24,000 nt of DNA from Methanoculleus chikugoensis (lineage in GTDB: Archaea > Halobacteriota > Methanomicrobia > Methanomicrobiales > Methanoculleaceae): the NCBI RefSeq assembly GCF_019669965.1, contig NZ_AP019781.1, forward strand, positions 1,527,092-1,551,091, in the 5' to 3' direction. Positions 3,571-17,407 of the stretch are shown here, one piece after another (the first letter of the stretch is position 1; every line of letters begins with the position of its first letter). The notes below the pieces were generated by a model. The model was not told where the DNA came from, ran no database searches, and saw only the letters and a program-made list of their open reading frames with translations. Made by a program: the position numbers and the translations under genes.

Positions 3571-3584
3571 AACCTCATACCCCC

Positions 3585-4594: not shown

Positions 4595-4598
4595 ACCG

Positions 4599-4988: not shown

Positions 4989-5000
4989 AGCAATCACACG

Positions 5001-6188: not shown

Positions 6189-6235
6189 GCTGCACCCCAA
6201 TCCTGTACAAAGGTATTTGTCCTCCGGAACTAAAA

Positions 6236-6249
6236 TTAACAATTGTTAA
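6236..6249. promoter_or_regulatory. Operator site A: perfect palindrome TTAACAATTGTTAA
   Basis: Read directly from the sequence. It lies in the divergent gap between iscS (-) and the HTH regulator gene (+). It overlaps a TATA-like TTAATTTTAG (minus-strand sense, 6230-6239) upstream of iscS. Confidence 0.65.
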
Positions 6250-6291
6250 CATCATCGTTAGATTTGTTCAGAAACCATTAAAAGTTGTGGT

Positions 6292-6618
6292 ATGATGAAA
6301 CTCCCCTGCCAGTTGATTGTATGGAACGTATTGCCCGCAATCCGTGCGGCTATCGCGGAAGAACTGAATACTATGGGCGTTTCCCAGCTGGAGGCCGCCC
6401 GCCTCCTCGATATGACGCCGTCAGCGATCTCCCAGTACCGCACCGGGAAACGCGGGTACCGGATCGTCTTTGAGGGAGAGGTGAAAGAGTCGCTCAACCG
6501 GCTTGCACAGGACCTCCAGGCCGGCCGTGTCGACGACCTCGCCTCCCGGATATGTGAGATCTGCACGCAGATCCGCGAAGAGAATCAACTCGGCGGCTCA
6601 TGCGACGCTGAGACGTAA
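6292..6618 (+). CDS. Small HTH (XRE/COG2522-like) transcriptional regulator with C-terminal cysteines
   Basis: 108 aa. N-terminal PCQLIVWNVLPAIRAAIAEEL is followed by the HTH GVSQLEAARLLDMTPSAISQYRTGKRG. The C-terminal part has CEIC plus a further Cys (GGSC). Its stop TAA lies within the TAAGGAGG SD of the next gene. Confidence 0.75.
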   Translation: MMKLPCQLIVWNVLPAIRAAIAEELNTMGVSQLEAARLLDMTPSAISQYRTGKRGYRIVFEGEVKESLNRLAQDLQAGRVDDLASRICEICTQIREENQLGGSCDAET

Positions 6619-6632
6619 GGAGGCGTCCACCG

Positions 6633-7433
6633 GTGGAATCGAGGTGCAGCAGAGAAGCCGTCGTCGAGGCTCTCAGGGAGAAAGGCCCCATCCTCATCGC
6701 ATACTCCGGCGGCGTCGACAGCGCGCTCCTCGCCGCCCTGGCCGTCCGGGCACTCGGGAAGGATCGGGTCCGGTGTGTCCTCCTTGACTCGCCGCTTCTG
6801 CCCCGGCGAGAGATCGAGGAGGCGCGGGAGACCGCTGGCCGGCTGGACCTTCCCCTGGAGGTCGTGGCGTTCCCGATTCTTGAGGATGAGACCTTCCGGG
6901 CGAACCGGCCCGACCGCTGCTACACCTGTAAGAAAACATCGGCCCGCCTGCTGAAGGATCTGGCCCGGCGGGAAGGGATCGGCACGGTCGCAGACGGGAC
7001 GAACGCCTCCGACCCCGGCACGTACCGCCCGGGGCTTGCCGCAAGCGACGAGGAGGGCGTCTGCCACCCCCTCGCCGGGGCGGGTGCGACGAAGGATGAC
7101 GTGCGCAGGATCGCCCGCGAGTGCGGATTCCCGTTCTGGAACAAACCCTCGGCGGCCTGCCTCGCCACCCGCATCCCCTACGGGGACGAGGTCACGGAGG
7201 AGGCGCTCGCCCGGATCGAGGCGGCCGAAGAAGCGCTGCAGGACCGGGGATTCTCCCAGGTGCGGGTCCGCATGCACGGTGACGTCGCCAGGATCGAGGT
7301 GCCGTGCGACGCGATAGAGAGGCTCTTTTCCATGCGAAATGTTGTGACGGCCGCACTCCGCGCGATCGGCTTCGCCTATGTCGCCCTGGACCTCGCCGGG
7401 TACCGGAGCGGGAGTATGGATGAGGTCTTATGA
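6633..7433 (+). CDS. larE: LarE-family PP-loop ATP-dependent sulfur transferase (three-Cys variant)
   Basis: PP-loop AYSGGVDS, motifs CYTCK and SAACLATR, and the C-terminal LDLAGYRSGSMDE typical of LarE/TIGR00268-like proteins. The GTG start lies 9 nt after GGAGG. Confidence 0.8.
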   Translation: MESRCSREAVVEALREKGPILIAYSGGVDSALLAALAVRALGKDRVRCVLLDSPLLPRREIEEARETAGRLDLPLEVVAFPILEDETFRANRPDRCYTCKKTSARLLKDLARREGIGTVADGTNASDPGTYRPGLAASDEEGVCHPLAGAGATKDDVRRIARECGFPFWNKPSAACLATRIPYGDEVTEEALARIEAAEEALQDRGFSQVRVRMHGDVARIEVPCDAIERLFSMRNVVTAALRAIGFAYVALDLAGYRSGSMDEVL

Positions 7434-8614
7434 CCATTGAAGACTGTAGAGCGGATTTTCCGATCACCCGCGACCTCATCTACCTGGACAGCGCCGCAAC
7501 GGCGCTCACCCCGAAGCCGGTGGTCCAGGCGATGGTCGAGTACGACCTGCGATACCGGGCAAACGTCGGGAGGGGCGTGCACCGGCTCGCCGCGGTCGCC
7601 ACCCACCGCTACCGGGACGCCCGCGACGCTATAAAGTCGTTCATCGGCGGAGAGAGCGGCACCCTTGCTGTCACCCGGAACACCACCGAGGCGATCGGGG
7701 CGGTCGTCAACGGCCTCGACTGGCGCCGGGGCGACCGGGTGGCGACGACACTCCTCGAACACCACTCCAACCTCCTTCCCTGGCTCCGGCTCCGCGAGCG
7801 GGGAGTCGCGGTAGATATCGTCCGGCCGGACGCCGGGGGCAGCCTCGACCTCGCCGACCTGGAGGCTGCCGTCCGCGACGACACCCGGCTCGTCGCCGTC
7901 ACCCACGCCTCGAACGTCCTCGGCACCGTCCTTCCCGTCCGGGAGATTGCCGGGATCTGCCGCGACCGGGGTGCGCGGCTCCTCGTCGACGGCGCCCAGT
8001 CGGCCCCGCACATCCCGGTCGACGTCGCCGCCATCGGGTGCGACTACTTCTGTTTCTCGGGCCACAAGATGCTCGGCCCGACCGGGACAGGCGGGCTCTG
8101 GATGCGCGAGCCGGACCTCGAACCCCTCTTCGTCGGGGGCGGTTCGATCGAGAGCGCGACGGCGGACGGCTACATCCTCGCTCCCGGCGAAGAGCGCTAC
8201 GAGGCGGGAACGCCGCCGGTCGCCGGCACCATCGGGCTTGCACGGGCGGCGGCGTACCTCCGGGAGATCGGGATGGAGACGGTGCGGCGGCACGAGGAGC
8301 GACTCGCCGCCCGGCTGATCGACGGGCTCGCGGCGCTCGACGGGGTTACGGTCGCCGGCCCGGACGCGCCCGGCGACCGGATCGGCGTCGTCTCGTTCAC
8401 GGTCGAGGGGATGCACCCGCACGAGGTGGCGCAGGTCCTCGACGAGGCCGCCGCCGTCCTGGTCCGGTCGGGGCACCACTGCTGCCAGCCGCTCATGGAG
8501 CACCTCGACCTCCCGGACGGGACGGTGCGGGCGAGCGCCTACGTCTACACCACAACGGAGGAGATTGATACGCTGATAGCCACCGTCGAAGAGATCGCCC
8601 GGAGGGCGATCTGA
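7430..8614 (+). CDS. Group II (SufS/CsdA-like) cysteine desulfurase
   Basis: 394 aa with LDSAATALTP, HASNVLG, PLP-lysine FSGHKMLGPTGTGGL and active site RSGHHCCQP. Its ATG overlaps the larE stop (ATGA). Confidence 0.85.
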   Translation: MTIEDCRADFPITRDLIYLDSAATALTPKPVVQAMVEYDLRYRANVGRGVHRLAAVATHRYRDARDAIKSFIGGESGTLAVTRNTTEAIGAVVNGLDWRRGDRVATTLLEHHSNLLPWLRLRERGVAVDIVRPDAGGSLDLADLEAAVRDDTRLVAVTHASNVLGTVLPVREIAGICRDRGARLLVDGAQSAPHIPVDVAAIGCDYFCFSGHKMLGPTGTGGLWMREPDLEPLFVGGGSIESATADGYILAPGEERYEAGTPPVAGTIGLARAAAYLREIGMETVRRHEERLAARLIDGLAALDGVTVAGPDAPGDRIGVVSFTVEGMHPHEVAQVLDEAAAVLVRSGHHCCQPLMEHLDLPDGTVRASAYVYTTTEEIDTLIATVEEIARRAI

Positions 8615-9393
8615 TGCTCTACCGGGAACTGCCGATCGTCAGGGTCGACGACGAGACGTTCGTCCCCGCAACCCACCCCGTCGTCGAGGAGATGCCGCTC
8701 TCCGTGACCGTCAACGGGCGCCACGCCCTCACCGCGATGACGAGCCCGGCGATGATCCGGGAGTTCGTCGTGGGATTCCTCTACACGGAGCGGATCGTCA
8801 GGGATCTCGCGGAGATCGAGTCGATCCGGATCGAGGGGAATACCGCGAGCGTCCTCACGAAGAACCCGTTCGCGATCCTGACCTCCCACAAGACCGTCCT
8901 CTCCGGGTGCGGCGGGAGCACCTCGTTCCTCGATGCCGGTCACCTCCCCACTATACGCTCCGACCTCACCCTCGCGCCCGAGACGATCCGGGCGGCGACA
9001 AAAGAGACGCTTGACTCGGACCTTCACCGGATCACCGGCGGCATTCACCTCGTCGGACTCTTCGACGCCGAAGGCAGAGCGATCCGGATCGCCGAGGATA
9101 TCGGCCGGCACAACGCGCTCGACCGGGTCGTCGGCCACGGCCTGCTTGAGCAGATCGATTTCTCCCGGACGTTTGCGGTCAGCTCCGGCCGGATATCCTC
9201 CGAGATGGTCAGGAAGTGCCTGGTCGCGAACATCCCGGTGATCGTCTCGCGGGGGGCGACGACCACCACCGCCGTCGAGGCCGCAGAGGCGGGCGGGCTC
9301 ACGATCGTCGGGTTCGTGCGGAGCAAAAAGATGAACATCTATACCGGGTGGGAGCGGGTCCGCGGCGCTTCGCAGGCGACCGCAGGCGAGTGA
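8614..9393 (+). CDS. fdhD: FdhD sulfurtransferase (formate dehydrogenase-family Mo/W cofactor sulfuration)
   Basis: 259 aa with SGCGG and GRHNALDRVVG motifs and the length typical of FdhD. Its ATG overlaps the preceding stop (TGATG). Confidence 0.85.
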   Translation: MLYRELPIVRVDDETFVPATHPVVEEMPLSVTVNGRHALTAMTSPAMIREFVVGFLYTERIVRDLAEIESIRIEGNTASVLTKNPFAILTSHKTVLSGCGGSTSFLDAGHLPTIRSDLTLAPETIRAATKETLDSDLHRITGGIHLVGLFDAEGRAIRIAEDIGRHNALDRVVGHGLLEQIDFSRTFAVSSGRISSEMVRKCLVANIPVIVSRGATTTTAVEAAEAGGLTIVGFVRSKKMNIYTGWERVRGASQATAGE

Positions 9394-9513
9394 CCGGAGG
9401 GGCGGTCCCTTGCCCTGCCCGCCCGGTCGAACAACGGCTTCCATCGGCCGGAGAGATCTGCTGAACGCTTCTGCTCTGCAGTGCCGGGTTTCACGGACAC
9501 TGGCGAAAAATTT

Positions 9514-9557
9514 TGAAAAATCTGATTTTTCAGAAATTTTAGATCCCCATAAATACC
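9514..9557 (+). promoter_or_regulatory. AT-rich promoter region with a 9-1-9 palindrome TGAAAAATC-T-GATTTTTCA and a TATA-like ATAAATA
   Basis: The palindrome at 9514-9532 was read directly. The TATA-like box at 9549-9555 lies about 35 nt upstream of the ATG at 9588. This is the only strongly AT-rich stretch between fdhD and the AbrB-like gene. Confidence 0.5.
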
Positions 9558-9587
9558 ACCGCTCCCAACCATAGTACGAGAAACACT

Positions 9588-9878
9588 ATGGCAGAGGAGA
9601 ATACCGATCCGGAACGGTGTCCGTCAGATGGGACGCCGTGCGGGTGCAATCATGCTGCCGTCTGCAGCGTGGAGGCGGTGCTCAGCGTGGACGAGCGCGG
9701 GCAGATGGTGCTGCCGAAAGACGTTCGGGAAAAGGCGGGTATCCGGCCCGGCGACAAACTGGCGCTGATCACCTGGGAGAAGGACGGCGAGGTCTGCTGC
9801 CTTGCGCTGATGAAGGCCGGAAGCCTCAGTGGGATGGTCAGGAGCGTCCTCGGGCCGCTGATCGAGGAGGCGAAGTGA
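9588..9878 (+). CDS. AbrB/SpoVT-domain protein with a Cys-rich N-terminus (HgcAB-associated, HgcC-like)
   Basis: SpoVT/AbrB-like segment VDERGQMVLPKDVREKAGIRPGDKLALI. N-terminal CPSDGTPCGCNHAAVC and an internal CC. It lies immediately upstream of hgcA. Confidence 0.75.
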   Translation: MAEENTDPERCPSDGTPCGCNHAAVCSVEAVLSVDERGQMVLPKDVREKAGIRPGDKLALITWEKDGEVCCLALMKAGSLSGMVRSVLGPLIEEAK

Positions 9879-9882
9879 AGTC

Positions 9883-10929
9883 ATGACATCCCCGTCACGG
9901 TCATGCTGCCCGTCCTGCCCGGAGACGGTTCAGCCGGCCTCCGGGCCGGTGCAGGAGATCCGGACGACGGACAGCAGGATCACGCTCGCCGATCGCCTCG
10001 ATCACTTCCTCGCGCGCTTCGGGGTGAACCGGATGGGCCACCGCGTCGAGCCGGGGCTCTACCGGCTCGGGAACCCGACCGAGGACTCCCCGGTCTTCGT
10101 CTCCGCAAACTACACCCTGAGTTTCGATGCGCTCCGGTCCGCGCTCTCCGGCCGCGACGGCTACATCCTCGTTCTCGACACGCTCGGGATCAACGTCTGG
10201 TGCGCCGCGGGGAAGGGGACCTTCGGCACCGACGAGATCGTCCGGAGAATAGCGCTCACCGGTCTTGAGTCCGTCGTGAGGCACCGGACGCTCATCGTCC
10301 CGCAGCTCGGCGCCCCGGGCGTCTCCGCCCACGAAGTGCTACGGCGTTCGAGGTTCGAGGTGGAGTACGGGCCCGTGCGGGCGAGCGACCTCCCGGAGTA
10401 CCTCGCCCTCGGGAGAGCAACGCCCGATATGCGGCGCGTCCGCTTCCCGGCCGTCGACCGGCTCGTGCTCGCGCCGATGGAACTCGTCCACGCCGCGCTT
10501 CCGACCGTTGCAGGCGCGATCGTGCTCTACCTCCTCGCGGGCCTCCCGGCAGCGCTCGGAGCAGTCGCCGCGGTTCTCGCCGGAACGGTGCTCTTCCCGG
10601 CCCTGCTGCCGTTCATTCCCACCCGGGACTTCAGCACGAAAGGGCTCATCCTCGGGGGAATCGTCGCCCTTCCCTTCTCAGCCGCCTTCTTCGTTGAGAC
10701 TGCCGCGTCCGGGTGGGCCGGGGTGCTTGCCGCGTTCGCACCTCTCCTCCTCATGCCCCCCGTAACCGCATACCTCGCGCTCAACTTCACCGGCTCGACC
10801 CCGTTCACGTCGAGGACCGGTGTGAAGCGGGAGATCTTCCGGTACGTGCCGTTCATGGCGGGAATGGCGGTCCTGGGAGCCGCCCTTGCCGCCGTCCTCG
10901 GGACGGCGCACCTCCTGGGGGCGGTCTGA
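9883..10929 (+). CDS. hgcA: HgcA, corrinoid protein of the mercury methylation system
   Basis: Diagnostic cap-helix signature GINVWCAAGKGTFGT. The N-terminal soluble corrinoid-binding-like domain is followed by a long hydrophobic C-terminal half with several predicted TM helices. Confidence 0.9.
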   Translation: MTSPSRSCCPSCPETVQPASGPVQEIRTTDSRITLADRLDHFLARFGVNRMGHRVEPGLYRLGNPTEDSPVFVSANYTLSFDALRSALSGRDGYILVLDTLGINVWCAAGKGTFGTDEIVRRIALTGLESVVRHRTLIVPQLGAPGVSAHEVLRRSRFEVEYGPVRASDLPEYLALGRATPDMRRVRFPAVDRLVLAPMELVHAALPTVAGAIVLYLLAGLPAALGAVAAVLAGTVLFPALLPFIPTRDFSTKGLILGGIVALPFSAAFFVETAASGWAGVLAAFAPLLLMPPVTAYLALNFTGSTPFTSRTGVKREIFRYVPFMAGMAVLGAALAAVLGTAHLLGAV

Positions 10930-11240
10930 TGTTCGACTCCTACCGCGAGAATACCCTCCGCTACAACCCGGAGCGGTGCTTCGGCTGCCTGCGGTGCACC
11001 GAGGTCTGCCCGCACGGGGTCTTTGCCGAGGGAAACCGGCGGGTCGAGGTCGTTCGGCCGGAGGAGTGCATGGAGTGCGGGGCGTGCGCCCGAAACTGTC
11101 CGGTGCAGGCGATTGCGGTGCAGAGCGGAGTCGGGTGCGCCTGGGCGATGATCGGGGCGGCTCTCCGGGGTAAGGATATGGACAGCGGCACCTGCGGCTG
11201 CGGGGGAGACGAAGGATCCTGCTGCGGCGGCGACCGGTGA
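10929..11240 (+). CDS. hgcB: HgcB, 2x[4Fe-4S] ferredoxin partner of HgcA
   Basis: True start MFDSYRENTL; its ATG overlaps the hgcA stop (TGATG). Two ferredoxin motifs, CFGCLRCTEVCP and CMECGACARNCP, and a Cys-rich tail CGCGGDEGSCCGG. Confidence 0.88.
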   Translation: MFDSYRENTLRYNPERCFGCLRCTEVCPHGVFAEGNRRVEVVRPEECMECGACARNCPVQAIAVQSGVGCAWAMIGAALRGKDMDSGTCGCGGDEGSCCGGDR

Positions 11241-11246
11241 GACCTT

Positions 11247-12164
11247 CTACTCACCGTCCCGCCCGAGCAGCCTGCAGACCTGGCAGACCTCGCCGCTCGT
11301 GAGTTCGCCGCAGATGCGGCAGGTGGAGAGCGCCTTCGCCGGCTCCGCGGAACGAGCCGAACGCCTGACCCCGTCGCGGAACCGCATAAGGCGGAGCATC
11401 GTTCCCGGGTGGCGGTGTTCGAGCCCCGCAAGCATCGTGCGCACCTCCGACCGGAGCGCCGTCCCGGCGTAGGGGCACTCGGGCAGGTCGCGGAAGTAAC
11501 CGCGGAGGAGGAGGTAGGTCACGATCTCCTTCTCGGAGAGGACGGCGAGCGGTTTTATCCGCGGGACGAAGTGCCCGGGCTGCCCGGTCGAGGTGTCCTG
11601 GAGAAGGCGGGGGAGGTCGCCGCGGAGGACGTTCATCAGAACCGACTGCGCCTCGTCGTCGAGGTTATGGCCGGTGGCGAGTTTCGTCGCGCCGGTCCTC
11701 TTCACCGCCTCGCCGAGCGCCCGCCTGCGCAGCACGCCGCAGACGGTGCAGCCCTGCGCCTCTCTTCCGACGAGCATTGCATCGAGGTCTTTCCCGAAGA
11801 GGTCGGCGAACGTGACGATCGCGTGCTCGACGCCGAGTTCGCCCGTCAGGTCTCGTGCGGCCCTGAGGGTCTCCTCCCGGTAGCCCGCGATCCCTTCGTC
11901 GATGGTGATCGCGACCAGACTCGCGCCGAGTGTGGGGAGGATGGGGTGGAGCAGCAGGAGCAGGGCGGTGCTGTCTTTTCCCCCGCTCAGGCCGACGGCG
12001 ACCCGGTCGCCCGGCGAGATCATGCGGTCGTGCTTCATGGCGACGAGGACGCGGGTTTCGGCGTCCTCGATGAAGTGGCCGGCGCAGAGCCGCCGCTCCG
12101 GCTCAGTGAGGCGGACGACCGCAGGTTCGCCGCAGAGGGAGCACCGGTTCTCCGCCGAAGTCAT
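11247..12164 (-). CDS. ttuA: TtuA/Ncs6(NcsA)-family PP-loop tRNA 2-thiolation enzyme
   Basis: 305 aa. N-terminal Zn finger CSLCG...CAGH, PP-loop GLSGGKDS, cluster cysteines GCTVCG and ECPY, and C-terminal Zn finger CRICG...CQVC. Confidence 0.82.
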   Translation of the reverse strand: MTSAENRCSLCGEPAVVRLTEPERRLCAGHFIEDAETRVLVAMKHDRMISPGDRVAVGLSGGKDSTALLLLLHPILPTLGASLVAITIDEGIAGYREETLRAARDLTGELGVEHAIVTFADLFGKDLDAMLVGREAQGCTVCGVLRRRALGEAVKRTGATKLATGHNLDDEAQSVLMNVLRGDLPRLLQDTSTGQPGHFVPRIKPLAVLSEKEIVTYLLLRGYFRDLPECPYAGTALRSEVRTMLAGLEHRHPGTMLRLMRFRDGVRRSARSAEPAKALSTCRICGELTSGEVCQVCRLLGRDGE

Positions 12165-12168
12165 CGGC

Positions 12169-12363
12169 TCACCCGCCGTGCGAGAACCGGAGGATCCTGA
12201 GCTCGTCGCCTTCGGTCGCCGTCACGTCTTCGGGGACGATCTTGCCGTTCTTCACGACGATAACGGTCGTCGGATTGATGCCGAACTCGAGGAGGATCTC
12301 TTCTATCGGCGCGGAGGTACAGGAAAGAGTCCGCACGCTCCTGTCCGGGAGGATGATCTGCAT
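12169..12363 (-). CDS. ThiS/TtuB-like ubiquitin-like sulfur carrier (C-terminal GG)
   Basis: The ATG at 12363 gives 64 aa, MQIILPDRS...GDELRILRFSHGG. It lies 4 nt upstream of ttuA. The longer track ORF (to 12480) runs through promoter-like AT-rich sequence. Confidence 0.78.
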   Translation of the reverse strand: MQIILPDRSVRTLSCTSAPIEEILLEFGINPTTVIVVKNGKIVPEDVTATEGDELRILRFSHGG

Positions 12364-12483
12364 ACTGTACGTGAGTGTTGGTTCCACCGCCCCATAAATA
12401 TCCTCAAGGTTCAGGGGCGGAATGTAACCGGATCTACAGCGACAACAAGAAATATATGGATCTCCCGGAGATCCGTACACAAG

Positions 12484-12497
12484 TTAACAATTGTTAA
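12484..12497. promoter_or_regulatory. Operator site B: perfect palindrome TTAACAATTGTTAA
   Basis: Read directly. It lies about 25-30 nt downstream of the TATA-like AAATATAT (12450-12458) and 47 nt upstream of the radical SAM ATG at 12544, in the divergent gap with the ThiS-like/ttuA operon. Confidence 0.65.
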
Positions 12498-12543
12498 GTC
12501 CGCGCCATGGCAGCCACGACAACGGGCGGGAGGGGGAGAACGC

Positions 12544-13558
12544 ATGGACGTCATGACACCTGAAGAGAAAGCATCTCTCGTCAGCATCGGCTCGGCGGGC
12601 ATCGACGAGGCGCTCGGCGGGCATCGACGAGGCGCTCGACGCGGATCTCCTCCCGACGACGGCGACGGCGGGGCCGGGCGCCGGAGGGTCGTCGATCTTC
12701 ATCCGCTCCGGCGACCGGCGCGTCCGCCTCTCCATCAACCCTGCATCGCCGCTCCGGGTCGTCCCGGACGGAGATGGGGTCGCCGTCGTCCGGGACGGGG
12801 AGACGATTGTACGGGGCAGGCTCGAGCGCCCACTCTCCCACTGCCCGGAGCAGGCCTATATCACCGCCAGCGAGCGCTGCATCTACGACTGTAAGTTCTG
12901 CCCGGTGCCGAAACTCGACGGGGCGATCAAGGATACGGAGACGATTATCAGGATGGTCGAGGCGGCTGCCGCCGGCGGGGGCCTCTCTGCAATCTCCCTC
13001 ACGAGCGGCGTCGCCGAATCGCCGGAGCGGGAGGTGGAGCGGGTGGCGGCCGTGGTGAAAGCGCTCCGGGAGCGGTTCGACCTCCCGATCGGGGTCTCGG
13101 TCTACCCGACCGCGGCCTCGACCGCGGTCCTCCGCGCTGCCGGTGCCGACGAGATCAAGTACAACGTCGAGACGATGGACCCAGGCCTCTTCGCCCGGGT
13201 CTGCCCCGGCCTCTCCCTTCCGTTCATCCTCGACGCACTCGCAGGGGCGGTGGAGGTCTTCGGGAGAAACGCCGTCTTCTCAAACTTCATCATCGGCCTC
13301 GGCGAGGACGACGAGACGGTCAGGGAAGGCGTCGCCCTTCTTGCGAAGATAGGCGTCATCCCCGTCCTCCGGCCGATCTCCGCATCGCCCCTTCGGGCAG
13401 GCGAGATCGCCGTCGAGCGTCCTTCGGCGGAGCGGCTTCTCCGGCTCGCGGCGATGACCCGCGAGATACTGGAGCGGTACGATCTCGACCCGCGGCAAGC
13501 GAGGACGATGTGCCTCCCCTGCACCGGGTGCGATCTCACCCCGTTCCGGGACGTCTGA
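12544..13558 (+). pseudogene. Radical SAM protein (biotin synthase-related, COG2516-like) disrupted by a 22-bp tandem duplication
   Basis: The ATG at 12544 (after the GGGAGGGGGA SD) reads MDVMTPEEKASLVSIGSAGIDEAL and then shifts frame at the duplication. The downstream frame encodes ...ERPLSHCPEQAYITASERCIYDCKFCPV (CxxxCxxC) and continues into the 12905-13558 ORF. Removing one 22-bp copy restores a single ORF. Confidence 0.8.
12591..12634. repeat. Perfect tandem duplication, 2 x 22 bp (CTCGGCGGGCATCGACGAGGCG)
   Basis: Units at 12591-12612 and 12613-12634 are identical. The next 4 nt (CTCG) repeat the start of the unit. A 22-bp unit is not a multiple of 3. Confidence 0.95.
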
Positions 13559-13567
13559 GGCGGGGGC

Positions 13568-13915
13568 TCACCGGGCACACCCATCTTCGCTCTCGTAGCG
13601 CTGCAGGATCGAGAGCGCGGTATCCCGGCCGAGCCGGTCGGTGACGAAGGTGAGAAAGACCTCGACGTGCCCGCAAGGGACGCAGCCGAGGCTCTCGCTC
13701 CCGTCCAGTATCAGCCCGACGAGATACCGGAGGTCATCGTCGTTCAGCCGCTCCAGCCGTTCCCAGAAGTCAGCGAGATCGGCAGCGTAGTGGTTTGCAA
13801 GCGGGGGGAGGATGGACCGGTAGGGCCCTCCCGAACCTGCACAGACCAGCCCCGTGCACTCCGGGGCGGATTTTTTCAGGATCGTCACGTCCCGTTCGGA
13901 TAAGATTCGCGCCAT
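13568..13915 (-). CDS. Small Cys-rich hypothetical protein (115 aa)
   Basis: The ATG at 13915 gives MARILSERDVTILKK.... GC-rich third codon positions look coding. Cysteines occur as CTGLVC, CVPC and a C-terminal GC. No family was recognised. The track ORF start at 14002 lies beyond the operator and promoter. Confidence 0.55.
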   Translation of the reverse strand: MARILSERDVTILKKSAPECTGLVCAGSGGPYRSILPPLANHYAADLADFWERLERLNDDDLRYLVGLILDGSESLGCVPCGHVEVFLTFVTDRLGRDTALSILQRYESEDGCAR

Positions 13916-13951
13916 GGTATCGTCCGGGCACGGCAGCCGGGCCGCACCACA

Positions 13952-13965
13952 TTCACAATTGTTAA
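13952..13965. promoter_or_regulatory. Operator site C: TTCACAATTGTTAA (13/14 match)
   Basis: Read directly. It lies in the divergent gap between the Cys-rich orphan (-) and nadA (+). It overlaps or abuts the TATA-like TTAAGTAAA. Confidence 0.55.
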
Positions 13966-13986
13966 GTAAACACAGGGATAACGGTT

Positions 13987-14955
13987 GTGGACAGGATCGC
14001 ATCGTCGACCGCAGAAAGGGGTTGTGATACCATTTTGTCTTCCAGTCTCGATCAAACCCTCACCGAACAGATTGCCGCGTTGAAAGAGGAGCGTGACGCC
14101 GTCATCCTCGCCCACAACTACCAGATTCCGGCGGTGCAGGAGATCGCCGACCGTGTCGGGGACTCGCTTGAACTCGCACGAGCGGCGGCGGAGTTCGATG
14201 CCGGCGTTATCGTCTTCTGCGGCGTCGACTTCATGGCCGAGACGGCGGCGATCCTATCGCCGGAGAAGACGGTCGTCCTGCCCGCGGCCGACGCCTGCTG
14301 CCCGATGGCGGAGATGATCACCGCCGGCGAGGTCCGGGTGCTCCGCGAGCGGTTCCCGGACGCCGCCGTCGTCGCCTACGTCAACACCTCGGCCGAAGTG
14401 AAAGCGGAGAGCGATATCTGCTGCACCTCCGCAAACGCCGTCGCCGCCGTCGAGTCACTCGACGCGGAAGAGGTGATCTTCCTCCCCGACAGAAATCTCG
14501 GCCGCTACGTCGCGAGGTTCACGGAGAAGAAGATCCTGCCCTGGGACGGCTACTGCATCGTCCACAACCGGATGACGGCCGACAAGGTCGCGGCAGCCCG
14601 CCGTTCCCACCCGGACGCCGGGGTGCTCGTCCACCCCGAATGCCGGCCCGGGGTGATCGACCTCGCCGATCACGTCTTCTCGACCTCGGGGATGGTGCGG
14701 CACGCCTGTGCAAGCCCCCGCAGGGAGTTTGTCATCGGCACCGAGGTCGGGCTCCTCCATCAGCTCGAAAAGAAGTGCCCGGGAAAGGTCTTCTACCCCC
14801 TCTCGAAGCAGGCGGTCTGCGTCAACATGAAGAAGACCGATCTCGCGAAGGTGCTTGCGGCCCTCGAGCGGTTCGAGCCGCGGGTGACGGTCCCGGAGGA
14901 GACCGCCGCCCGGGCGCGGACGGCGATCCAGCGGATGCTGGACCTTCCCCGGTAG
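13987..14955 (+). CDS. nadA: Quinolinate synthase NadA ([4Fe-4S] enzyme)
   Basis: Motifs LKEERDAVILAHNYQ, VGDSLELAR, FCGVDFMAETA and YVNTSAEVKA. The GTG start at 13987 is uncertain; an in-frame TTG at 14035 is an alternative. Confidence 0.88.
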   Translation: MDRIASSTAERGCDTILSSSLDQTLTEQIAALKEERDAVILAHNYQIPAVQEIADRVGDSLELARAAAEFDAGVIVFCGVDFMAETAAILSPEKTVVLPAADACCPMAEMITAGEVRVLRERFPDAAVVAYVNTSAEVKAESDICCTSANAVAAVESLDAEEVIFLPDRNLGRYVARFTEKKILPWDGYCIVHNRMTADKVAAARRSHPDAGVLVHPECRPGVIDLADHVFSTSGMVRHACASPRREFVIGTEVGLLHQLEKKCPGKVFYPLSKQAVCVNMKKTDLAKVLAALERFEPRVTVPEETAARARTAIQRMLDLPR

Positions 14956-14959
14956 TCCC

Positions 14960-15913
14960 TCAGATCTTCCCGAGGGTATCCTGCTGACCGAAGTACCGGT
15001 CCCAGTCCCAGGGCTCGTCGAAGACCTGCACCTCGACGTCCCGGACGCCGTTCACGTCGAGGACCCGGCGCCGGACCCGGTCGGTGAGGTAGTCGACGAG
15101 CGGGCAGGTGGCGGTGGTCAGGACCACCTCCACGAGCACGGAGGAGTCATGAACGGTGATCCCCCTGATCAGGCCGAGGTCGACGACGTCGATCCCGACC
15201 TCCGGGTCGATCACCTCCTTGAGCGCCGCACGGATCCTCTCCTCGAGCGCGATCTCCTCCTGGCGTCTCCCGGCAACCAGGCCCGATCGCTCCACCGCCC
15301 GGAGCCGCTCCTCGATCCGGTTCTGCCTATCAAGCATGCGGCTGACCACCCGGAGCATCGGGTCGGGAAGGTCGCCGCGATCGAGTTTCTCCTGGCCCTT
15401 CCGGCACTTCGGGCCGGCAAGCCTCCCCGGCACGCCCACGACCGTCGCACCGGGGGGGACGGGGTGGACGACGACCGACCCCGCCCCGATCTTTGCCCCT
15501 CGCCCGACGGTGATGGGGCCGAGAACGCTCGCCCCCGACCCGATGATGACGCCGTCCTCGATCGTCGGGTGTCGTTTTGTCTGCTCAAGCGCCGTGCCGC
15601 CGAGCACCACGCCCATGTAGATCAGGACATCGTCCCCGACCTCCGCCGTCTCCCCGATCACGACGCCCGAGCCGTGGTCGATGAAGACCCGGCAGCCGAT
15701 CTTCGCGCCGGGGTGGATCTCGATCCCGGTCAGCGCTCGCGAGATGTGGGAGACGAGCCGGGCTGCAAAGTAGAGCCGGCGGCGGTAGAAGGCATGCGCG
15801 ATCCGGTGCGCCCAGATCGCGTGGAGGCCGGGGTAGCAGCAGATCACCTCGAGCGTCGACCGGGCCGCCGGGTCCTTGTCAAAGACTGTCTGGATGTCTT
15901 CCCTGATGGTCAC
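14960..15913 (-). CDS. cysE: Serine O-acetyltransferase CysE fused to a C-terminal DUF59 (SufT/MIP18-like Fe-S assembly) domain
   Basis: The N-terminal two-thirds are CysE ([19 protein letters not shown], hexapeptide repeats [19 protein letters not shown]...). The C-terminal ~100 aa carry the DUF59 pattern [23 protein letters not shown]...TTATCPL. GTG at 15913 follows a GGGGGATGTGA SD. The track TTG at 15940 overlaps cysK. Confidence 0.82.
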
Positions 15914-15929
15914 CGTGTCACATCCCCCG

Positions 15930-16802
15930 TCACGTTCCAAAGAGATCCGTCGAGAGATACCGCTCGCCGGTGTCGGGGAGGATCACGACGATCATCTTCC
16001 CCTCGTACTCCCGGCGGGCGGCGACCTCACAGGCCGCATGCACAGCCGCGCCCGAAGAGATCCCGGCGAGGATCCCTTCTTCACGGGCGAGCCGGCGGCT
16101 CATCGCGAAGGCGTCCGCGGAGGCGACCCGGAGGACCTCGTCGACGAGATCGGTCCGCAGGACGCCCGGCACGAATCCGGCCCCGATCCCCTGGATACGG
16201 TGCGGTCCGGCCGCCCCGCCGGAGAGGACCGGGGACTCGGCGGGCTCGACGGCGAACGCCTTGAAGGAGGGGTTTCGTGCCTTGATGACCTCCGCGACCC
16301 CGGTGATCGTTCCGCCCGTCCCGACGCCGGCGACGACGGCGTCGACGGTCCCGTCGGTATCCCGCCAGATCTCCTCGGCCGTCGTCCGACGGTGAACGGC
16401 GGGGTTTGCCGGGTTCTCGAACTGCCGGGGCACGAAGTAGGTGTCCGGGTTCTCGGCGGCGATCCGGGCCGCACGGTCGACCGCTCCCCCCATCCCCTCG
16501 GCTCCGGGCGTGAGAACCACCTCGGCGCCAAGCGCCGCGAGGAGTTTTCGCCGCTCCACGCTCATCGTCTCGGGCATTACGAGCCTGAGCCGGTAGCCGC
16601 GGGCGGCACAGACGAACGCGAGTGCAACCCCGGTGTTGCCGCTCGTCGCCTCGACGATCGTCGTCCCCTCCCGGATCTCGCCGGTCCGCTCGGCCTCGTC
16701 GATCATCGCGACCCCGATCCGGTCTTTTACGCTCGCCATCGGGTTGAACGACTCCACCTTGGCGAGAACCGTCGCCCGGGAGCCCTCCGTCACGCGGTTC
16801 AA
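15930..16802 (-). CDS. cysK: Cysteine synthase A / O-acetylserine sulfhydrylase CysK (5' end unresolved)
   Basis: Motifs [25 protein letters not shown] and [10 protein letters not shown]. The conserved N-terminal segment [18 protein letters not shown] is encoded in frame upstream of the first canonical start (TTG at 16802). The true start probably lies near 16859. Confidence 0.85.
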
Positions 16803-17010
16803 CCGGACGAGCGGGGTGTTCCCGATCGTCCAGGTGATATCACGGTATATCCGTCCCGTAGGTATAGCCTCCTTCGATCATTCATATACTTGAACAGGCA
16901 GCATTCCCGCGTCTCCGGCATCCACCGCCACCTCTTCGAGCGCACGGACCTTCTCGACCGCGGCGGCGGTGGATGGGCGTGCCGGACGACGTCCTCCTTG
17001 TCGAACGCGA

Positions 17011-17277
17011 TCAGCGGCCGGCAGCCTGGATCGGCTGGATGTTGATATATGCCTCTTCCCGGTTCCGGATATCGAGGCTGCCGGTGATCTTCGTGACCAG
17101 CGGAGAGCCCGTCCCGGCCTCCAGGTCGTCGAGGGCGGCCCGGACCCGGGCGACACCCTCCCGGATCGCCTGCTCCTCGGCGGGATCCGGGCCGGTCGGG
17201 AGCGTCTCCCGGAGCACTTCGCGGATATCCTCGAGCGCGAAGAGCGCTTCGAACGTCTTCTGGATCTCTTCCTTCAT
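17011..17277 (-). CDS. Hypothetical 88-aa protein directly downstream of tRNA-Cys
   Basis: The ATG at 17277 lies 5 nt after the tRNA 3' end. GC-rich third codon positions look coding. No family was recognised. The track ORF (to 17361) has an N-terminal extension that overlaps the tRNA and is spurious. Confidence 0.4.
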   Translation of the reverse strand: MKEEIQKTFEALFALEDIREVLRETLPTGPDPAEEQAIREGVARVRAALDDLEAGTGSPLVTKITGSLDIRNREEAYINIQPIQAAGR

Positions 17278-17281
17278 GGAG

Positions 17282-17353
17282 AGCCGAAACCCGGAGTCGA
17301 ACCGGGATGGAGTTGATCTGCAGTCAACCGCGTAGCCGTTCCGCCACCTCGGC
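17282..17353 (-). tRNA. tRNA-Cys (anticodon GCA)
   Basis: Manual cloverleaf of 72 nt. Acceptor stem GCCGAGG/UUUCGGC (two G-U pairs). Anticodon stem GUUGA/UCAAC with loop CU-GCA-GA. T arm CCCGG-UUCGACU-CCGGG. Discriminator U73, as expected for tRNA-Cys. No encoded CCA. Confidence 0.9.
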
Positions 17354-17364
17354 AAAGGCATGAA

Positions 17365-17378
17365 TTAACAATTGTTAA
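17365..17378. promoter_or_regulatory. Operator site D: perfect TTAACAATTGTTAA (16-bp palindrome ATTAACAATTGTTAAT at 17364-17379)
   Basis: Read directly. It begins 12 nt upstream of the tRNA-Cys 5' end. Confidence 0.65.
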
Positions 17379-17393
17379 TCTTGCGCAGAGTAG

Positions 17394-17407
17394 TTAACAA
17401 TTGTGAA
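17394..17407. promoter_or_regulatory. Operator site E: TTAACAATTGTGAA (13/14 match), abutting the TATA-like ATATTTATAC (17408-17417)
   Basis: Read directly. Its centre lies 29 bp from the centre of site D. On the minus strand the order is TATA box, site E, site D, tRNA-Cys. Confidence 0.6.

What the first reader, a model, noticed from the sequence alone, without database searches (positions are those of the whole stretch)
6236..17407. A 14-bp palindrome TTAACAATTGTTAA recurs five times, only in promoter gaps of sulfur/cysteine/Fe-S genes: candidate undescribed regulon
Seen directly: perfect copies at 6236-6249, 12484-12497 and 17365-17378, and one-mismatch copies at 13952-13965 (TTCACAATTGTTAA) and 17394-17407 (TTAACAATTGTGAA). 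There are about 2.7e8 possible 14-mers and only about 2.4e4 positions here, so recurrence by chance is implausible, especially for an AT-only-flanked motif in GC-rich DNA. All five copies lie in intergenic AT-rich gaps and none lies in a coding region. Each copy overlaps or directly follows a TATA-like box, a position consistent with repression by blocking TBP/TFB or RNA polymerase. The flanking transcription units share a theme: iscS-iscU-thiF-moaD-moaE-ycaO-tfuA; HTH-larE-desulfurase-fdhD; ThiS-like-ttuA; a radical SAM gene; a Cys-rich orphan; nadA (an Fe-S enzyme); and tRNA-Cys with cysK and cysE downstream. The obvious regulator candidate is the 108-aa HTH protein at 6292-6618. It lies next to site A and has a C-terminal CEIC plus a further Cys, which could sense Fe-S, redox or sulfide status. 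I do not recognise this operator or a characterised regulator for it.
Basis: partly seen in the sequence, partly recalled or inferred. Interest (0 to 1): 0.86.

Follow-up and report, generated by a model that had tools for sequence, protein, structure and literature searches.

The report
Cysteine/Fe-S regulon operator in methanogens
The repeated 14-base palindrome is very probably the DNA docking site of a small, uncharacterised cysteine-rich regulator encoded next to it, which appears to switch off cysteine, sulfur-transfer and iron-sulfur genes, and unusually the cysteine tRNA gene itself, in methanogens and some bacteria.

Summary
Five copies of TTAACAATTGTTAA (three exact, two with one mismatch) lie in promoter gaps of a 65% GC Methanoculleus window; shuffles give none.

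In 80 related loci plus the window (1.31 Mb), the consensus A-TT[C/A]ACAATTGT[G/T]AA-T occurs 186 times against about 1 expected, and 179 of these are outside coding sequence.

- It sits about 56 nt upstream of the 108-aa HTH gene in 69 of 81 cases.
- It precedes tRNA-Cys in 21 of 23 cases and other tRNAs in 0 of 19.
- It also precedes iscS, nadA, a variant radical-SAM gene, cysK, SepCysS, pdxS, metX, sufBD and thi4.

The exact 14-mer also lies beside distant homologues of the regulator in a bacterium (Ca. Aminicenantes, cysE-cysK-regulator operon) and three other lineages. The regulator and its operator therefore travel together.

Sites abut the TATA box or cover the predicted transcription start, which points to repression. 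Four conserved cysteines suggest sensing through an Fe-S cluster or thiol chemistry; that step is inferred only.

I found no paper, Pfam or NCBIfam model, or solved structure for this family. In this window, control of cysK/cysE and SAMP2-ttuA is not shown.

The parts
6236..6249 (.). Site A, exact palindrome between divergent iscS and the regulator gene; predicted autoregulatory operator
   Evidence: A site lies at -75 to -30 from the regulator start in 69 of 81 homologous loci. A conserved BRE/TATA-like element lies 16-19 nt upstream, which places the site centre at the predicted transcription start.
6207..6219 (+). Predicted BRE/TATA (ACAAAGGTATTTG) of the regulator gene
   Evidence: An AAAGGTATTT / AAAGATATTT / CTTTTAAG element is conserved at the same offset from the site across genera. 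This is a prediction; no start-site data exist.
6292..6618 (+). 108-aa Cys-rich XRE-type HTH protein, candidate regulator (Cys6, Cys88, Cys91, Cys104)
   Evidence: Weak HTH_3 match. The family is 57-97% identical across Methanomicrobiales and Methanosarcinales. C6, C88 and C91 are invariant, and C104 is conserved in at least 90% of the wider family.
6633..9393 (+). larE, SufS-type cysteine desulfurase and fdhD, directly downstream of the regulator; probably one transcription unit under site A
   Evidence: Same strand with gaps or overlaps of 15 nt or less. An independent metagenome contig (L189) has a site upstream of larE-desulfurase-fdhD.
1330..6152 (-). NifS/IscS-type desulfurase (5001-6152), iscU (4599-4997), thiF (3860-4594), moaD/ThiS (3585-3863), moaE (3154-3570), McrA-thioamidation ycaO (1943-3157), tfuA (1330-1983); divergent from site A
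   Evidence: IscS homologues have a site within 260 nt upstream in 37 of 39 cases. In this window the single shared site lies upstream of the likely iscS TATA, so the mode of control is uncertain.
12484..12497 (.). Site B, exact palindrome upstream of the variant radical-SAM gene
   Evidence: A TATA-like AAATATAT at 12450-12457 lies 26 nt upstream, so the site covers about +3 to +16. Radical-SAM homologues have a site upstream in 12 of 14 cases.
12544..13558 (+). Variant radical-SAM gene, split here by a 22-bp tandem duplication (12597-12640)
11247..12363 (-). SAMP2-like ubiquitin-fold sulfur carrier (12169-12363) and NcsA/TtuA tRNA thiolase (11247-12164); regulon membership in this window uncertain
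   Evidence: Site B is about 85 nt upstream of their own TATA-like box. In Methanolobus the SAMP2 gene lies downstream of a site-controlled tRNA-Cys.
13952..13965 (.). Site C (TTCACAATTGTTAA) between the Cys-rich ORF and nadA
   Evidence: It ends 21 nt before the nadA start and is the only AT-rich stretch there. nadA homologues carry a site in 23 of 46 cases, in Methanoculleus, Methanofollis, Methanolinea, Methanolobus and unnamed Methanosarcinaceae.
13987..14955 (+). nadA (quinolinate synthase, a [4Fe-4S] enzyme)
   Evidence: NadA, E 1e-122.
13568..13915 (-). 115-aa Cys-rich protein of unknown function, divergent from nadA
   Evidence: No Pfam or NCBIfam hit. Homologues have a site upstream in 5 of 6 cases, and also in metagenome contig L175.
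17365..17378 (.). Site D, exact palindrome 11 nt upstream of the mature tRNA-Cys 5' end (proximal operator, about +6 to +19)
17394..17407 (.). Site E (TTAACAATTGTGAA), distal operator directly abutting the TATA box
   Evidence: The arrangement TATA, site, 12-15 bp, site, tRNA-Cys recurs in Methanofollis, Methanolinea and other Methanomicrobiales.
17408..17421 (-). TATA box (TATAAATA, 17408-17415) and BRE-like CGAAGG (17416-21) of the tRNA-Cys promoter
   Evidence: The same cRRAAtc-TATAAATA element is conserved upstream of tRNA-Cys in L019, L024, L044 and L046.
17281..17353 (-). tRNA-Cys (GCA)
   Evidence: ARAGORN and Rfam at 48.3 bits. 21 of 23 tRNA-Cys genes, against 0 of 19 other tRNAs, have a site within 80 nt upstream.
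14960..16859 (-). cysK (15930-16859, conserved start is ACG here) and cysE fused to a SufT-like domain (14960-15940); control by sites D/E not shown here
   Evidence: A 421-nt gap and a separate TATA-like box separate them from tRNA-Cys. In other lineages cysK is directly preceded by a site (L050, L056, L098, L202, L208).

Best explanation
The palindrome (full form A-TT[C/A]ACAATTGT[G/T]AA-T) is the operator of the 108-aa Cys-rich XRE-type helix-turn-helix protein encoded at 6292-6618. The protein probably binds as a dimer, one subunit per TTMAC half-site.

It controls its own gene and a regulon for cysteine supply and sulfur mobilisation. In this window the members are the regulator-larE-desulfurase-fdhD unit, the variant radical-SAM gene, nadA, the Cys-rich ORF and tRNA-Cys, and probably the divergent iscS-iscU-thiF-moaD-moaE-ycaO-tfuA operon. 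In relatives the regulon also covers cysK/cysE, SepCysS, metX, pdxS, sufBD, thi4 and an ABC transporter.

The sites abut the TATA box, lie between TATA and the predicted start, or lie just downstream of it. In bacterial homologues they overlap a -10-like box. The protein therefore most likely represses by blocking TBP/TFB binding or RNA polymerase recruitment.

tRNA-Cys belongs to the regulon plausibly because in methanogens it is the scaffold on which cysteine is made (the SepRS/SepCysS pathway).

The signal is probably read through the four conserved cysteines (Cys6, Cys88-x2-Cys91, Cys104), as an Fe-S cluster or a thiol/persulfide switch.

Shown here: the motif, its statistics, its promoter positions, its gene associations, and its co-occurrence with the regulator gene across lineages. 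Inferred: binding itself, the sign of regulation, the effector and the transcription starts.
For: Motif and statistics
- Five sites in the window; 0 of 100 shuffles gave any match.
- In 80 related loci plus the window there are 186 sites with at most 1 mismatch, against a mean of 0.95 in 20 Markov simulations (maximum 2).
- 179 of the 186 lie outside or at the 5' edge of predicted genes, although only 16% of the DNA is non-coding.
- Information content falls to about zero beyond the 16-bp palindrome, so this is not a repeat element.

Pairing of regulator and operator
- A site lies at -75 to -30 from the regulator start in 69 of 81 genes across Methanoculleus, Methanofollis, Methanoregula, Methanolinea, Methanospirillum, Methanocalculus and Methanolobus.
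- The exact TTAACAATTGTTAA also lies beside distant homologues (30-45% identical) in four independent lineages:
  - Ca. Aminicenantes, upstream of cysE-cysK-regulator (L202).
  - A second cysE-cysK-regulator locus, where the site overlaps a TATAAT box (L208).
  - A thiF-thiS-regulator-nadA locus (L206).
  - A DPANN-like contig (L211).
- Palindromic variants lie in front of regulator-sufBDSU (L210) and regulator-iscS...iscU (L213).
- The putative recognition helix SA[IV]SQY..KRG is nearly invariant.

Regulon
- tRNA-Cys 21 of 23 against other tRNAs 0 of 19.
- IscS 37 of 39, radical SAM 12 of 14, Cys-rich ORF 5 of 6, NadA 23 of 46.
- Also PdxS, MetX-CBS, SufBD, Thi4 and ThiN, and a site followed by tRNA-Cys and then SepCysS in L068.
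- A context-blind metagenome scan for TTCACAATTGTGAA gave 14 contigs that carry methanogen-like genes. Every site there lies before tRNA-Cys/iscS, the regulator, cysK-cysE, the radical-SAM gene, larE-desulfurase-fdhD, the Cys-rich ORF, a SepCysS fragment plus metX, an ABC transporter or a conserved 95-aa unknown protein.

Repression geometry
- The arrangement TATA, site, 12-15 bp, site, tRNA is conserved.
- A conserved BRE/TATA lies 16-19 nt before the autoregulatory site.
- In Methanolobus nadA promoters, TATA is followed after 12 nt by the site.
- The site overlaps -10-like boxes in the bacterial loci.
Against: - There are no binding, start-site or expression data, so all promoter elements are predictions.
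- The 80 loci were collected through the regulator gene, so they over-sample its neighbourhood. The context-blind scan gave only 14 informative contigs.
- At some promoters the sites lie upstream of the TATA box, at the BRE position or further. Examples are nadA in Methanolinea and Methanofollis, and iscS in this window. This position is also compatible with activation or dual control.
- Methanomethylovorans homologues lack a good site upstream of their own gene.
- The conserved cysteines could bind structural zinc, as I recall for some other XRE-type proteins.
- The AlphaFold model is uncertain exactly at Cys6 and Cys104.
- The correlation between residue 51 (Thr or Ser) and operator positions 3 and 12 rests on one clade only.
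- Contexts in two DPANN genomes are not sulfur-related.
Confidence: 0.75

Rival explanations
1. The same regulator and operator are involved, but the protein activates or acts in both directions, as IscR does, rather than simply repressing. It might recruit TFB/TBP where the site lies just upstream of the TATA box.
For: At nadA in Methanolinea (L040, L046) and Methanofollis (L023), the sites sit immediately 5' of a TATATAA box. In this window, site A lies upstream of the likely iscS TATA. From my own knowledge, archaeal activators bind in such positions.
Against: Most sites lie downstream of TATA or over the predicted start: tRNA-Cys, the regulator gene, the radical-SAM gene and Methanolobus nadA. 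In the bacterial loci the site overlaps the -10-like box. Both are classic repressor geometry.
Confidence: 0.15
2. The palindrome is bound by a different factor, for example the ArsR-type protein at 17-439 or an unlinked regulator. The neighbouring HTH gene would then be only one of its targets.
For: No binding experiment exists. An ArsR/TrmB-like HTH gene lies at the end of the isc-ycaO operon.
Against: The exact operator follows homologues of the 108-aa protein into unrelated genomes (Aminicenantes, DPANN-like and others), where the surrounding genes differ. The site keeps a fixed distance from that gene in 69 of 81 loci. No other regulator gene is consistently nearby.
Confidence: 0.05
3. 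The motif is a generic promoter or TATA-like element, a short dispersed repeat, or an RNA hairpin acting in leaders. It would not be a factor-specific operator.
For: The motif is AT-rich in GC-rich DNA, always lies in promoter gaps, and in site C it may double as the TATA box. Sites B and D would be transcribed.
Against: Only a narrow set of gene families carries it. Of 19 non-Cys tRNA genes, none has it. Internal operon genes and most other genes lack it. Flanks are not conserved. Many sites lie between TATA and the predicted start or upstream of TATA, where they would not be transcribed. Rfam finds nothing but the tRNA. The 14-mer would give only a five-base-pair A/U-rich stem.
Confidence: 0.03

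Closest known systems
IscR (Rrf2-family [2Fe-2S] regulator of isc/suf genes in bacteria)
   Same: A small autoregulated DNA-binding protein encoded at an isc locus, with conserved cysteines, controlling Fe-S assembly genes through a palindromic operator. In some homologue loci here the regulator is the first gene of a suf or isc operon (L210, L213), as IscR is in its operon.
   Different: There is no Rrf2 domain; the only match is a weak XRE/HTH_3 hit. The operator sequence and cysteine spacing differ. The regulon extends to cysteine synthesis, tRNA-Cys, sulfur-carrier and PLP genes. Cluster binding is untested.
SufR (cyanobacterial and actinobacterial [4Fe-4S] repressor of suf)
   Same: A repressor whose conserved C-terminal cysteines are thought to report Fe-S status. 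It is encoded next to its target operon and is autoregulated.
   Different: The DNA-binding fold and the operator are unrelated (SufR operator CAAC-N6-GTTG, from my own knowledge). No sequence similarity was detected.
CymR / CysB (bacterial master regulators of cysteine metabolism)
   Same: They control cysK/cysE and sulfur assimilation genes. The cysE-cysK-regulator operons with the operator in Aminicenantes-type loci indicate the same physiological role.
   Different: The protein families differ (Rrf2 and LysR). Their effectors are O-acetylserine or N-acetylserine, sensed through CysK or a ligand domain. They do not control a tRNA gene.
SurR (Thermococcales sulfur-response regulator with a CxxC redox switch)
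   Same: An archaeal regulator of sulfur-related genes with a CxxC motif that could act as a thiol switch. Its operators lie at core promoters.
   Different: SurR is an ArsR-type double winged helix with a GTTn3AAC motif (my own knowledge). It responds to elemental sulfur and controls hydrogenase and sulfur-reduction genes.
XRE / Cro-C1 family repressors (phage 434 and lambda type; HigA, MqsA; E. coli SutR/YdcN)
   Same: They share the HTH_3-type DNA-binding domain, palindromic operators of 14-20 bp, and autoregulation. SutR is reported as a regulator of sulfur utilisation with a palindromic motif (PMC8464067, citing Yamamoto et al. 2015).
   Different: The C-terminal two-helix extension with CxxC, the N-terminal Cys6 and the tail Cys have no solved or modelled relative. 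SutR is a 178-aa protein (PMC8464067); no sequence comparison with it could be run here.
NiaR/YrxA control of nadA with nifS in Bacillus
   Same: It couples quinolinate synthase (nadA) to a cysteine desulfurase gene under one repressor (my own knowledge).
   Different: NiaR is a nicotinic-acid-responsive regulator of a different fold. Here nadA is one member of a sulfur regulon.

Membership tests
XRE / Cro-C1 (HTH_3) transcription factors | Sequence match to the HTH_3 domain | tested here: met
   The window protein gives PF01381 at E 1.2e-4 and 22.5 bits, just under the 23-bit cutoff. 29 of 34 diverse family members match, best E 2.4e-8. A profile search of PDB sequences hits lambda-repressor-like and HigA chains over the HTH only.
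XRE / Cro-C1 (HTH_3) transcription factors | Palindromic operator of about 14-20 bp near the regulator's own promoter | tested here: met
   A 16-bp palindrome lies at -75 to -30 from the gene start in 69 of 81 loci.
XRE / Cro-C1 (HTH_3) transcription factors | Direct, dimeric binding of the protein to that operator | not testable with these tools
   Needs EMSA, footprinting or a structure.
IscR / Rrf2 Fe-S regulators | Rrf2-type winged-helix domain | tested here: not met
   No Rrf2 hit in Pfam or NCBIfam.
IscR / Rrf2 Fe-S regulators | Three Cys plus one His ligating a [2Fe-2S] cluster | tested here: inconclusive
   Four conserved Cys are present (C6, C88, C91, C104). The wider family adds C-x2-H and a terminal CxxC. 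Spacing differs from IscR and metal content is unknown.
IscR / Rrf2 Fe-S regulators | Encoded at, and controlling, Fe-S assembly genes, with autoregulation | tested here: met
   This holds by position only. The gene is divergent from iscS-iscU here. It is the first gene of sufBDSU in L210 and of iscS...iscU in L213. Sites precede IscS in 37 of 39 cases.
SufR-type [4Fe-4S] repressors | DeoR/ArsR-type winged helix plus a C-terminal Cys cluster binding [4Fe-4S] | tested here: not met
   The DNA-binding domain is of the HTH_3 type. Cluster binding was not tested.
SurR-type thiol-switch regulators | CxxC motif acting as a redox or sulfur switch | tested here: inconclusive
   An invariant C88-x2-C91 is present. 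Its chemistry is untested. The fold and the operator differ.
Archaeal promoter-occluding repressors (the mechanism of MDR1, LrpA, Phr, NrpR) | Operator overlapping BRE/TATA or lying between TATA and the start site | tested here: met
   This is met relative to predicted promoter elements. TATA abuts site E and its counterparts in other genera, and a second site lies about 26-29 bp further on. A conserved BRE/TATA lies 16-19 nt before the autoregulatory site. No experimental start sites exist.
SutR (YdcN) XRE-type sulfur-utilisation regulator of E. coli | Sequence relatedness beyond the HTH and a shared operator | not tested
   No SutR sequence was available to the tools. Only its existence, length (178 aa) and palindromic motif were read.

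The most novel reading that the evidence does not exclude
This is an ancient regulator family found in both archaea and bacteria, so far uncharacterised. It reads cellular sulfur, cysteine or Fe-S status through a cysteine-ligated Fe-S cluster or a persulfide switch, and binds one almost unchanged 16-bp operator in both domains. In methanogens it has brought the tRNA-Cys gene itself, together with SepCysS, into the cysteine regulon. That would be a rare case of a single tRNA gene under a dedicated metabolic transcription factor, because the tRNA is the scaffold of cysteine biosynthesis.
Probability: 0.4. Interest if true: 0.88.

Novelty: new variant of a known kind. Interest (0 to 1): 0.8.

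Why it matters
None of the papers on methanogen ISC, SMS or Fe/S acquisition that I read names a regulator of these genes.

This finding gives a concrete, testable regulator-operator pair. It also gives a predicted regulon that links cysteine synthesis, including the tRNA-dependent route, to Fe-S assembly, NAD synthesis, tRNA thiolation, molybdopterin synthesis and thioamidation of methyl-coenzyme M reductase.

Three further points matter:
- Specific transcriptional control of a tRNA gene as part of an amino-acid regulon is unusual.
- The operator is conserved from methanogens to Aminicenantes bacteria, so the family is probably a widespread but overlooked sulfur regulator. At least 644 clusters at 50% identity match it at E <= 1e-10.
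- It offers a defined repressible promoter element for methanogen genetics.

Tried and rejected
- **Rfam on the window.** Only the tRNA was found. This gives no support for an RNA element.
- **Solved structures.** The PDB sequence profile and Foldseek on the AlphaFold model gave only weak HTH-level hits and no significant fold match. There is no structural relative for the Cys-bearing part.
- **Family libraries.** NCBIfam and Pfam have no dedicated family.
- **Literature.** Ten searches covered the motif strings, methanogen sulfur and Fe-S regulators, XRE-type regulators, COG numbers and regulation of tRNA-Cys/SepCysS. Nothing describes the operator or the regulator. AmzR is unrelated.
- **The listing of cluster members on distant relatives.** The result was almost without names.
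- **Metagenome scan for TTCACAATTGTGAA.** It stopped at 120 loci. About 100 of them are chance hits in unrelated low-GC DNA. Only 14 were informative.
- **Region 17420-17875, downstream of site E on the + strand.** It has no convincing ORF, no Rfam hit and no homologue in the loci. The AT box there is best read as the tRNA-Cys TATA.
- **Residue 51 versus operator variant.** The covariation is real but confined to one clade, so it is not used as strong evidence.
- **My own ORF caller.** It over-extends starts and misses small genes. Counts are therefore approximate. Key genes were checked with Pfam or NCBIfam.
- **HgcB.** It was not found next to HgcA.

Full report
**1. The observation**

A search for TTAACAATTGTTAA with up to two mismatches returns exactly the five reported copies and nothing else. 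None of 100 dinucleotide-preserving shuffles gives a single match. The window is 56-73% GC, and the copies sit in short AT-richer gaps.

I assigned genes with Pfam and NCBIfam and refined the start codons. With those starts, every copy is intergenic:
- **Site A (6236).** Between a NifS/IscS-type desulfurase (start 6152, minus strand) and a 108-aa HTH gene (6292, plus strand).
- **Site B (12484).** Between a SAMP2-like gene (start 12363, minus) and a variant radical-SAM gene (12544/12553, plus).
- **Site C (13952).** Between a 115-aa Cys-rich ORF (start 13915, minus) and nadA (13987, plus).
- **Sites D and E (17365, 17394).** Upstream of tRNA-Cys(GCA) (17353-17281, minus).

The closest homologues of the HTH protein are from Methanoculleus, at 97% identity to M. 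caldifontis.

**2. The motif is a conserved, specific element**

The HTH protein belongs to a family that is 57-97% identical across Methanomicrobiales and Methanosarcinales. A profile of it retrieved 80 genomic loci of up to 20 kb.

In these loci plus the window (1.31 Mb), the pattern TTMACAATTGTKAA with at most one mismatch occurs 186 times. Twenty first-order Markov simulations gave a mean of 0.95 and a maximum of 2. Of the 186 sites, 179 lie outside or at the extreme 5' edge of predicted genes, although only about 16% of the DNA is non-coding. Five of the seven exceptions are one conserved coding sequence in Methanomethylovorans.

The logo extends by one base on each side (A at -1 and T at +1, 63% each), and then information content drops to zero. 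This is therefore a 16-bp palindrome and not part of a longer repeat. Methanoculleus prefers A/T at positions 3 and 12. Most other genera have C/G, so the window's two 'mismatch' copies are simply the majority variant.

**3. Which genes carry it**

- **The regulator gene.** 69 of 81 homologues have a site at -75 to -30 from the start, typically about -56. Most exceptions are Methanomethylovorans, which keeps only a degenerate CCACAATGATTTAA at that place.
- **tRNA-Cys.** 21 of 23 tRNA-Cys genes in the loci have a site within 80 nt upstream, ending 3-21 nt before the mature 5' end. None of 19 other tRNA genes (16 Arg, plus Gly, Thr and His) has one.
- **Other first genes of operons**. IscS homologues 37 of 39, the variant radical-SAM gene 12 of 14, the Cys-rich ORF 5 of 6, and NadA 23 of 46 (lineage-dependent). 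Internal operon genes score about 0.
- **Further flanking genes**. The SAMP2-like carrier, cysK, other desulfurases, PdxS, MetX-CBS, SufBD, Thi4, ThiN and a B12-binding protein. In L068 a site is followed by tRNA-Cys and then SepCysS.

The 80 loci were chosen through the regulator gene, so they over-sample its neighbourhood. I therefore also scanned metagenome contigs for the bare 14-mer TTCACAATTGTGAA. Most of the 120 hits returned are chance matches in unrelated low-GC DNA. Fourteen contigs carry methanogen-like genes, and in those the site lies before the following:
- tRNA-Cys-like genes followed by iscS (L088, L195);
- the regulator and iscS (L177, L195, L197);
- cysK-cysE (L098);
- the radical-SAM gene (L128);
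- larE-desulfurase-fdhD (L189);
- the Cys-rich ORF (L175);
- a SepCysS fragment plus metX (L086);
- an operon of an OB-fold protein, an FtsX-type permease and an ABC ATPase (L108, L171);
- a conserved 95-aa protein of unknown function (L143, L146), which also follows a site in M. palmolei (L007).

None of these sites lies before housekeeping or methanogenesis genes.

**4. The regulator and the operator travel together, across domains**

A library-wide profile search finds 644 clusters (at 50% identity) at E <= 1e-10. An alignment of distant members keeps the following features:
- Cys6;
- a nearly invariant SA[IV]SQY..KRG segment in the HTH;
- Cys88-x2-Cys91 and Cys104;
- in many members, an additional C-x2-H and a terminal CxxC.

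One such member, P0178, is named by NCBI as from Candidatus Aminicenantes bacterium AC-334-K16. Its locus reads Thi4 <- | -> cysE, cysK, regulator. The exact sequence CTTAACAATTGTTAAG lies 44 nt upstream of cysE, abutting a TATACT box.

Further loci show the same pairing:
- **L208/L209.** A second cysE-cysK-regulator locus has ATTAACAATTGTTAAT overlapping TATAAT.
- **L206/L207.** A thiF-thiS-thiS-regulator-nadA locus has the exact site 24 nt before the regulator start.
- **L211.** A DPANN-like contig has it before an MraZ-like gene and the regulator.
- **L210.** The variant TTAACTATAGTTAA lies directly before regulator-sufB-sufD-sufS-sufU.
- **L213.** CTTAACAATGTTAAG lies before regulator-desulfurase...iscU.

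At about 40% GC, an exact match is expected roughly 3e-4 times per 12-kb locus (my own estimate from base composition). Four independent exact occurrences next to the homologue are therefore far beyond chance.

This is the strongest available evidence that the 108-aa protein family is the factor that recognises the palindrome. Two other DPANN contexts are not sulfur-related and are uninformative.

**5. How it probably works**

*tRNA-Cys promoters.* Across genera they share one layout:
- a BRE-like cRRAAtc and a TATA box (TATAAATA or TTAAATAT);
- a site directly abutting the TATA box;
- 12-15 bp of spacer;
- a second site, followed 3-16 nt later by the tRNA.

In the window this corresponds to TATA 17415-17408, site E, a 15-bp spacer, site D, an 11-nt gap and the tRNA. 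Archaeal start sites usually lie about 23-25 nt beyond the TATA box (established knowledge). The predicted start therefore falls in the spacer, with one site covering roughly -24 to -11 and the other +6 to +19.

*The regulator gene.* An AAAGGTATTT-like BRE/TATA element is conserved 16-19 nt upstream of the site (window 6207-6219). This places the palindrome's centre on the predicted start.

*Sites B and C.* Site B lies 26 nt after a TATA-like AAATATAT. Site C ends 21 nt before the nadA start codon and is the only AT-rich element present, so it probably overlaps the TATA box of a short-leader transcript.

*Other cases.* In Methanolobus nadA promoters a TATATAA box is followed after 12 nt by the site. 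In the bacterial loci the site overlaps a -10-like hexamer. Neighbouring sites are spaced 13, 19-22 or 26-29 bp apart.

All of this is the geometry of repression, either by occluding TBP/TFB or by blocking polymerase recruitment. A minority of sites lie just upstream of a TATA box: nadA in Methanolinea and Methanofollis, and iscS relative to site A in this window. I keep activation or dual control as a rival at about 0.15.

**6. What it senses (inferred)**

The AlphaFold model has a mean pLDDT of 79 and is all-helical. It shows an HTH core plus two further helices, the second of which carries CxxC. Confidence is low exactly at the N-terminal Cys6 and the C-terminal Cys104, as would be expected if a bound cofactor orders them.

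No solved structure resembles the protein beyond the HTH. No Pfam or NCBIfam model covers it.

The regulon mixes cysteine supply with cysteine-consuming sulfur mobilisation and Fe-S-dependent enzymes:
- **Cysteine supply.** tRNA-Cys, SepCysS, cysK/cysE and metX, with pdxS for the PLP cofactor.
- **Sulfur mobilisation and Fe-S or sulfur-inserting enzymes.** IscS/IscU, SufBD, ThiF-MoaD-MoaE, LarE, FdhD, NcsA/TtuA-SAMP2, YcaO-TfuA, Thi4, NadA and the radical-SAM enzyme.

This mix fits a sensor of sulfur, cysteine or Fe-S sufficiency. My estimates are:
- Fe-S cluster on the four cysteines, about 45%;
- thiol or persulfide switch, about 25%;
- structural zinc with some other effector, about 20%.

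**7. Why tRNA-Cys**

In methanogens cysteine is made on tRNA-Cys by SepRS and SepCysS (established knowledge, summarised in PMC8516115). The arrangement of site, tRNA-Cys and SepCysS in L068, and tRNA-Cys followed directly by cysK in L050, show that the tRNA gene is embedded in cysteine-synthesis operons. Placing it under the same operator is therefore coherent. I found no report of such control.

**8. What is not shown for this window**

- **cysK and cysE.** They lie 421 nt downstream of tRNA-Cys and have a TATA-like box of their own. The conserved cysK ATG is ACG here. Their membership is supported only in other lineages.
- **SAMP2-ttuA.** They have their own TATA-like box about 85 nt from site B.
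- **The radical-SAM gene.** It is disrupted by a 22-bp tandem duplication that is absent from close relatives.

**9. Comparison with known systems, and novelty**

Functionally the system works like IscR, SufR and CymR/CysB. It is an autoregulated repressor at Fe-S and cysteine loci. It is not a member of those families, because the Rrf2, DeoR/ArsR and LysR domain tests are not met.

By its DNA-binding domain it is an XRE/Cro-type protein with a new Cys-bearing extension.

Ten literature searches found neither the motif nor the regulator. Papers on methanogen ISC, SMS and Fe/S acquisition name no such regulator.

I class it as a new variant of a known kind, namely a palindromic-operator repressor regulon. 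Three features are unusual: a tRNA gene as a core target, near-identity of the operator between archaea and bacteria, and an uncharacterised widespread family.

**10. Verdict**

- Confidence in the regulator-operator-regulon reading is about 0.75.
- The sign of regulation is likely repression.
- The effector is unknown.
- Interest is 0.8.

Noticed in passing
window 12597-12640: A 22-bp tandem duplication (GGGCATCGACGAGGCGCTCGGC, two copies) lies inside the variant radical-SAM gene. It is absent from the close relatives L001 and L002, shifts the frame and splits the gene into 12544-12894 and 12905-13558. It is either a real pseudogene or an assembly artefact.
   Followed up: partly
window 16857-16859 (minus strand): The start codon of cysK that is conserved in other Methanoculleus (ATG) reads ACG here. 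The next canonical start is a TTG 19 codons downstream.
   Followed up: partly
window 14960-15940 (minus strand): Serine acetyltransferase (CysE) is fused to a C-terminal SufT/DUF59-like Fe-S assembly domain. The fusion physically links cysteine synthesis and Fe-S assembly.
   Followed up: no
window 9588-10929: HgcC and the mercury-methylation corrinoid protein HgcA (NCBIfam E 8.5e-135) are inserted between fdhD and ttuA. The insert of about 1.85 kb is absent from the syntenic locus L001. No HgcB was recognised next to it.
   Followed up: partly
window 17420-17875: About 450 bp between the tRNA-Cys promoter and the next gene has no convincing ORF, no Rfam hit and no homologue in any fetched locus.
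   Followed up: partly
L088 3472-3560 and 4463-4552: Two sites with near-identical promoters each precede a tRNA-Cys-like gene. ARAGORN leaves one untyped and does not call the other, whose anticodon loop reads ACA rather than GCA by eye. A normal tRNA-Cys and iscS follow.
   Followed up: no
L086 191-439: An 83-aa ORF consists of pieces matching the N- and C-termini of SepCysS. It lies directly after a tandem operator and before metX.
   Followed up: partly
L007 17338-17625; L143 1658-1942; L146 about 1400-1660: A conserved 95-aa protein with no Pfam or NCBIfam match lies directly downstream of an operator, both in Methanoculleus palmolei and in low-GC metagenome contigs. It is a candidate new regulon member.
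   Followed up: partly
L108 953-3260; L171 305-1656; the context of P0289: An operon of an OB-fold secreted protein, an FtsX/MacB-type permease and an ABC ATPase follows an operator on two contigs and sits beside a regulator homologue on a third. L171 also has very Cys-rich small ORFs next to the site. Its substrate is unknown.
   Followed up: no
L210 5370-7904: The SufB gene downstream of a regulator homologue carries an intein with a LAGLIDADG endonuclease domain.
   Followed up: no
L032, L051, L059, L060, L062, L066, L073 (Methanomethylovorans), about 45 nt upstream of the regulator gene: This genus has only a degenerate CCACAATGATTTAA at the autoregulatory position. It also shares a coding-region TTCACAATTCTTAA that is probably a chance match.
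   Followed up: partly
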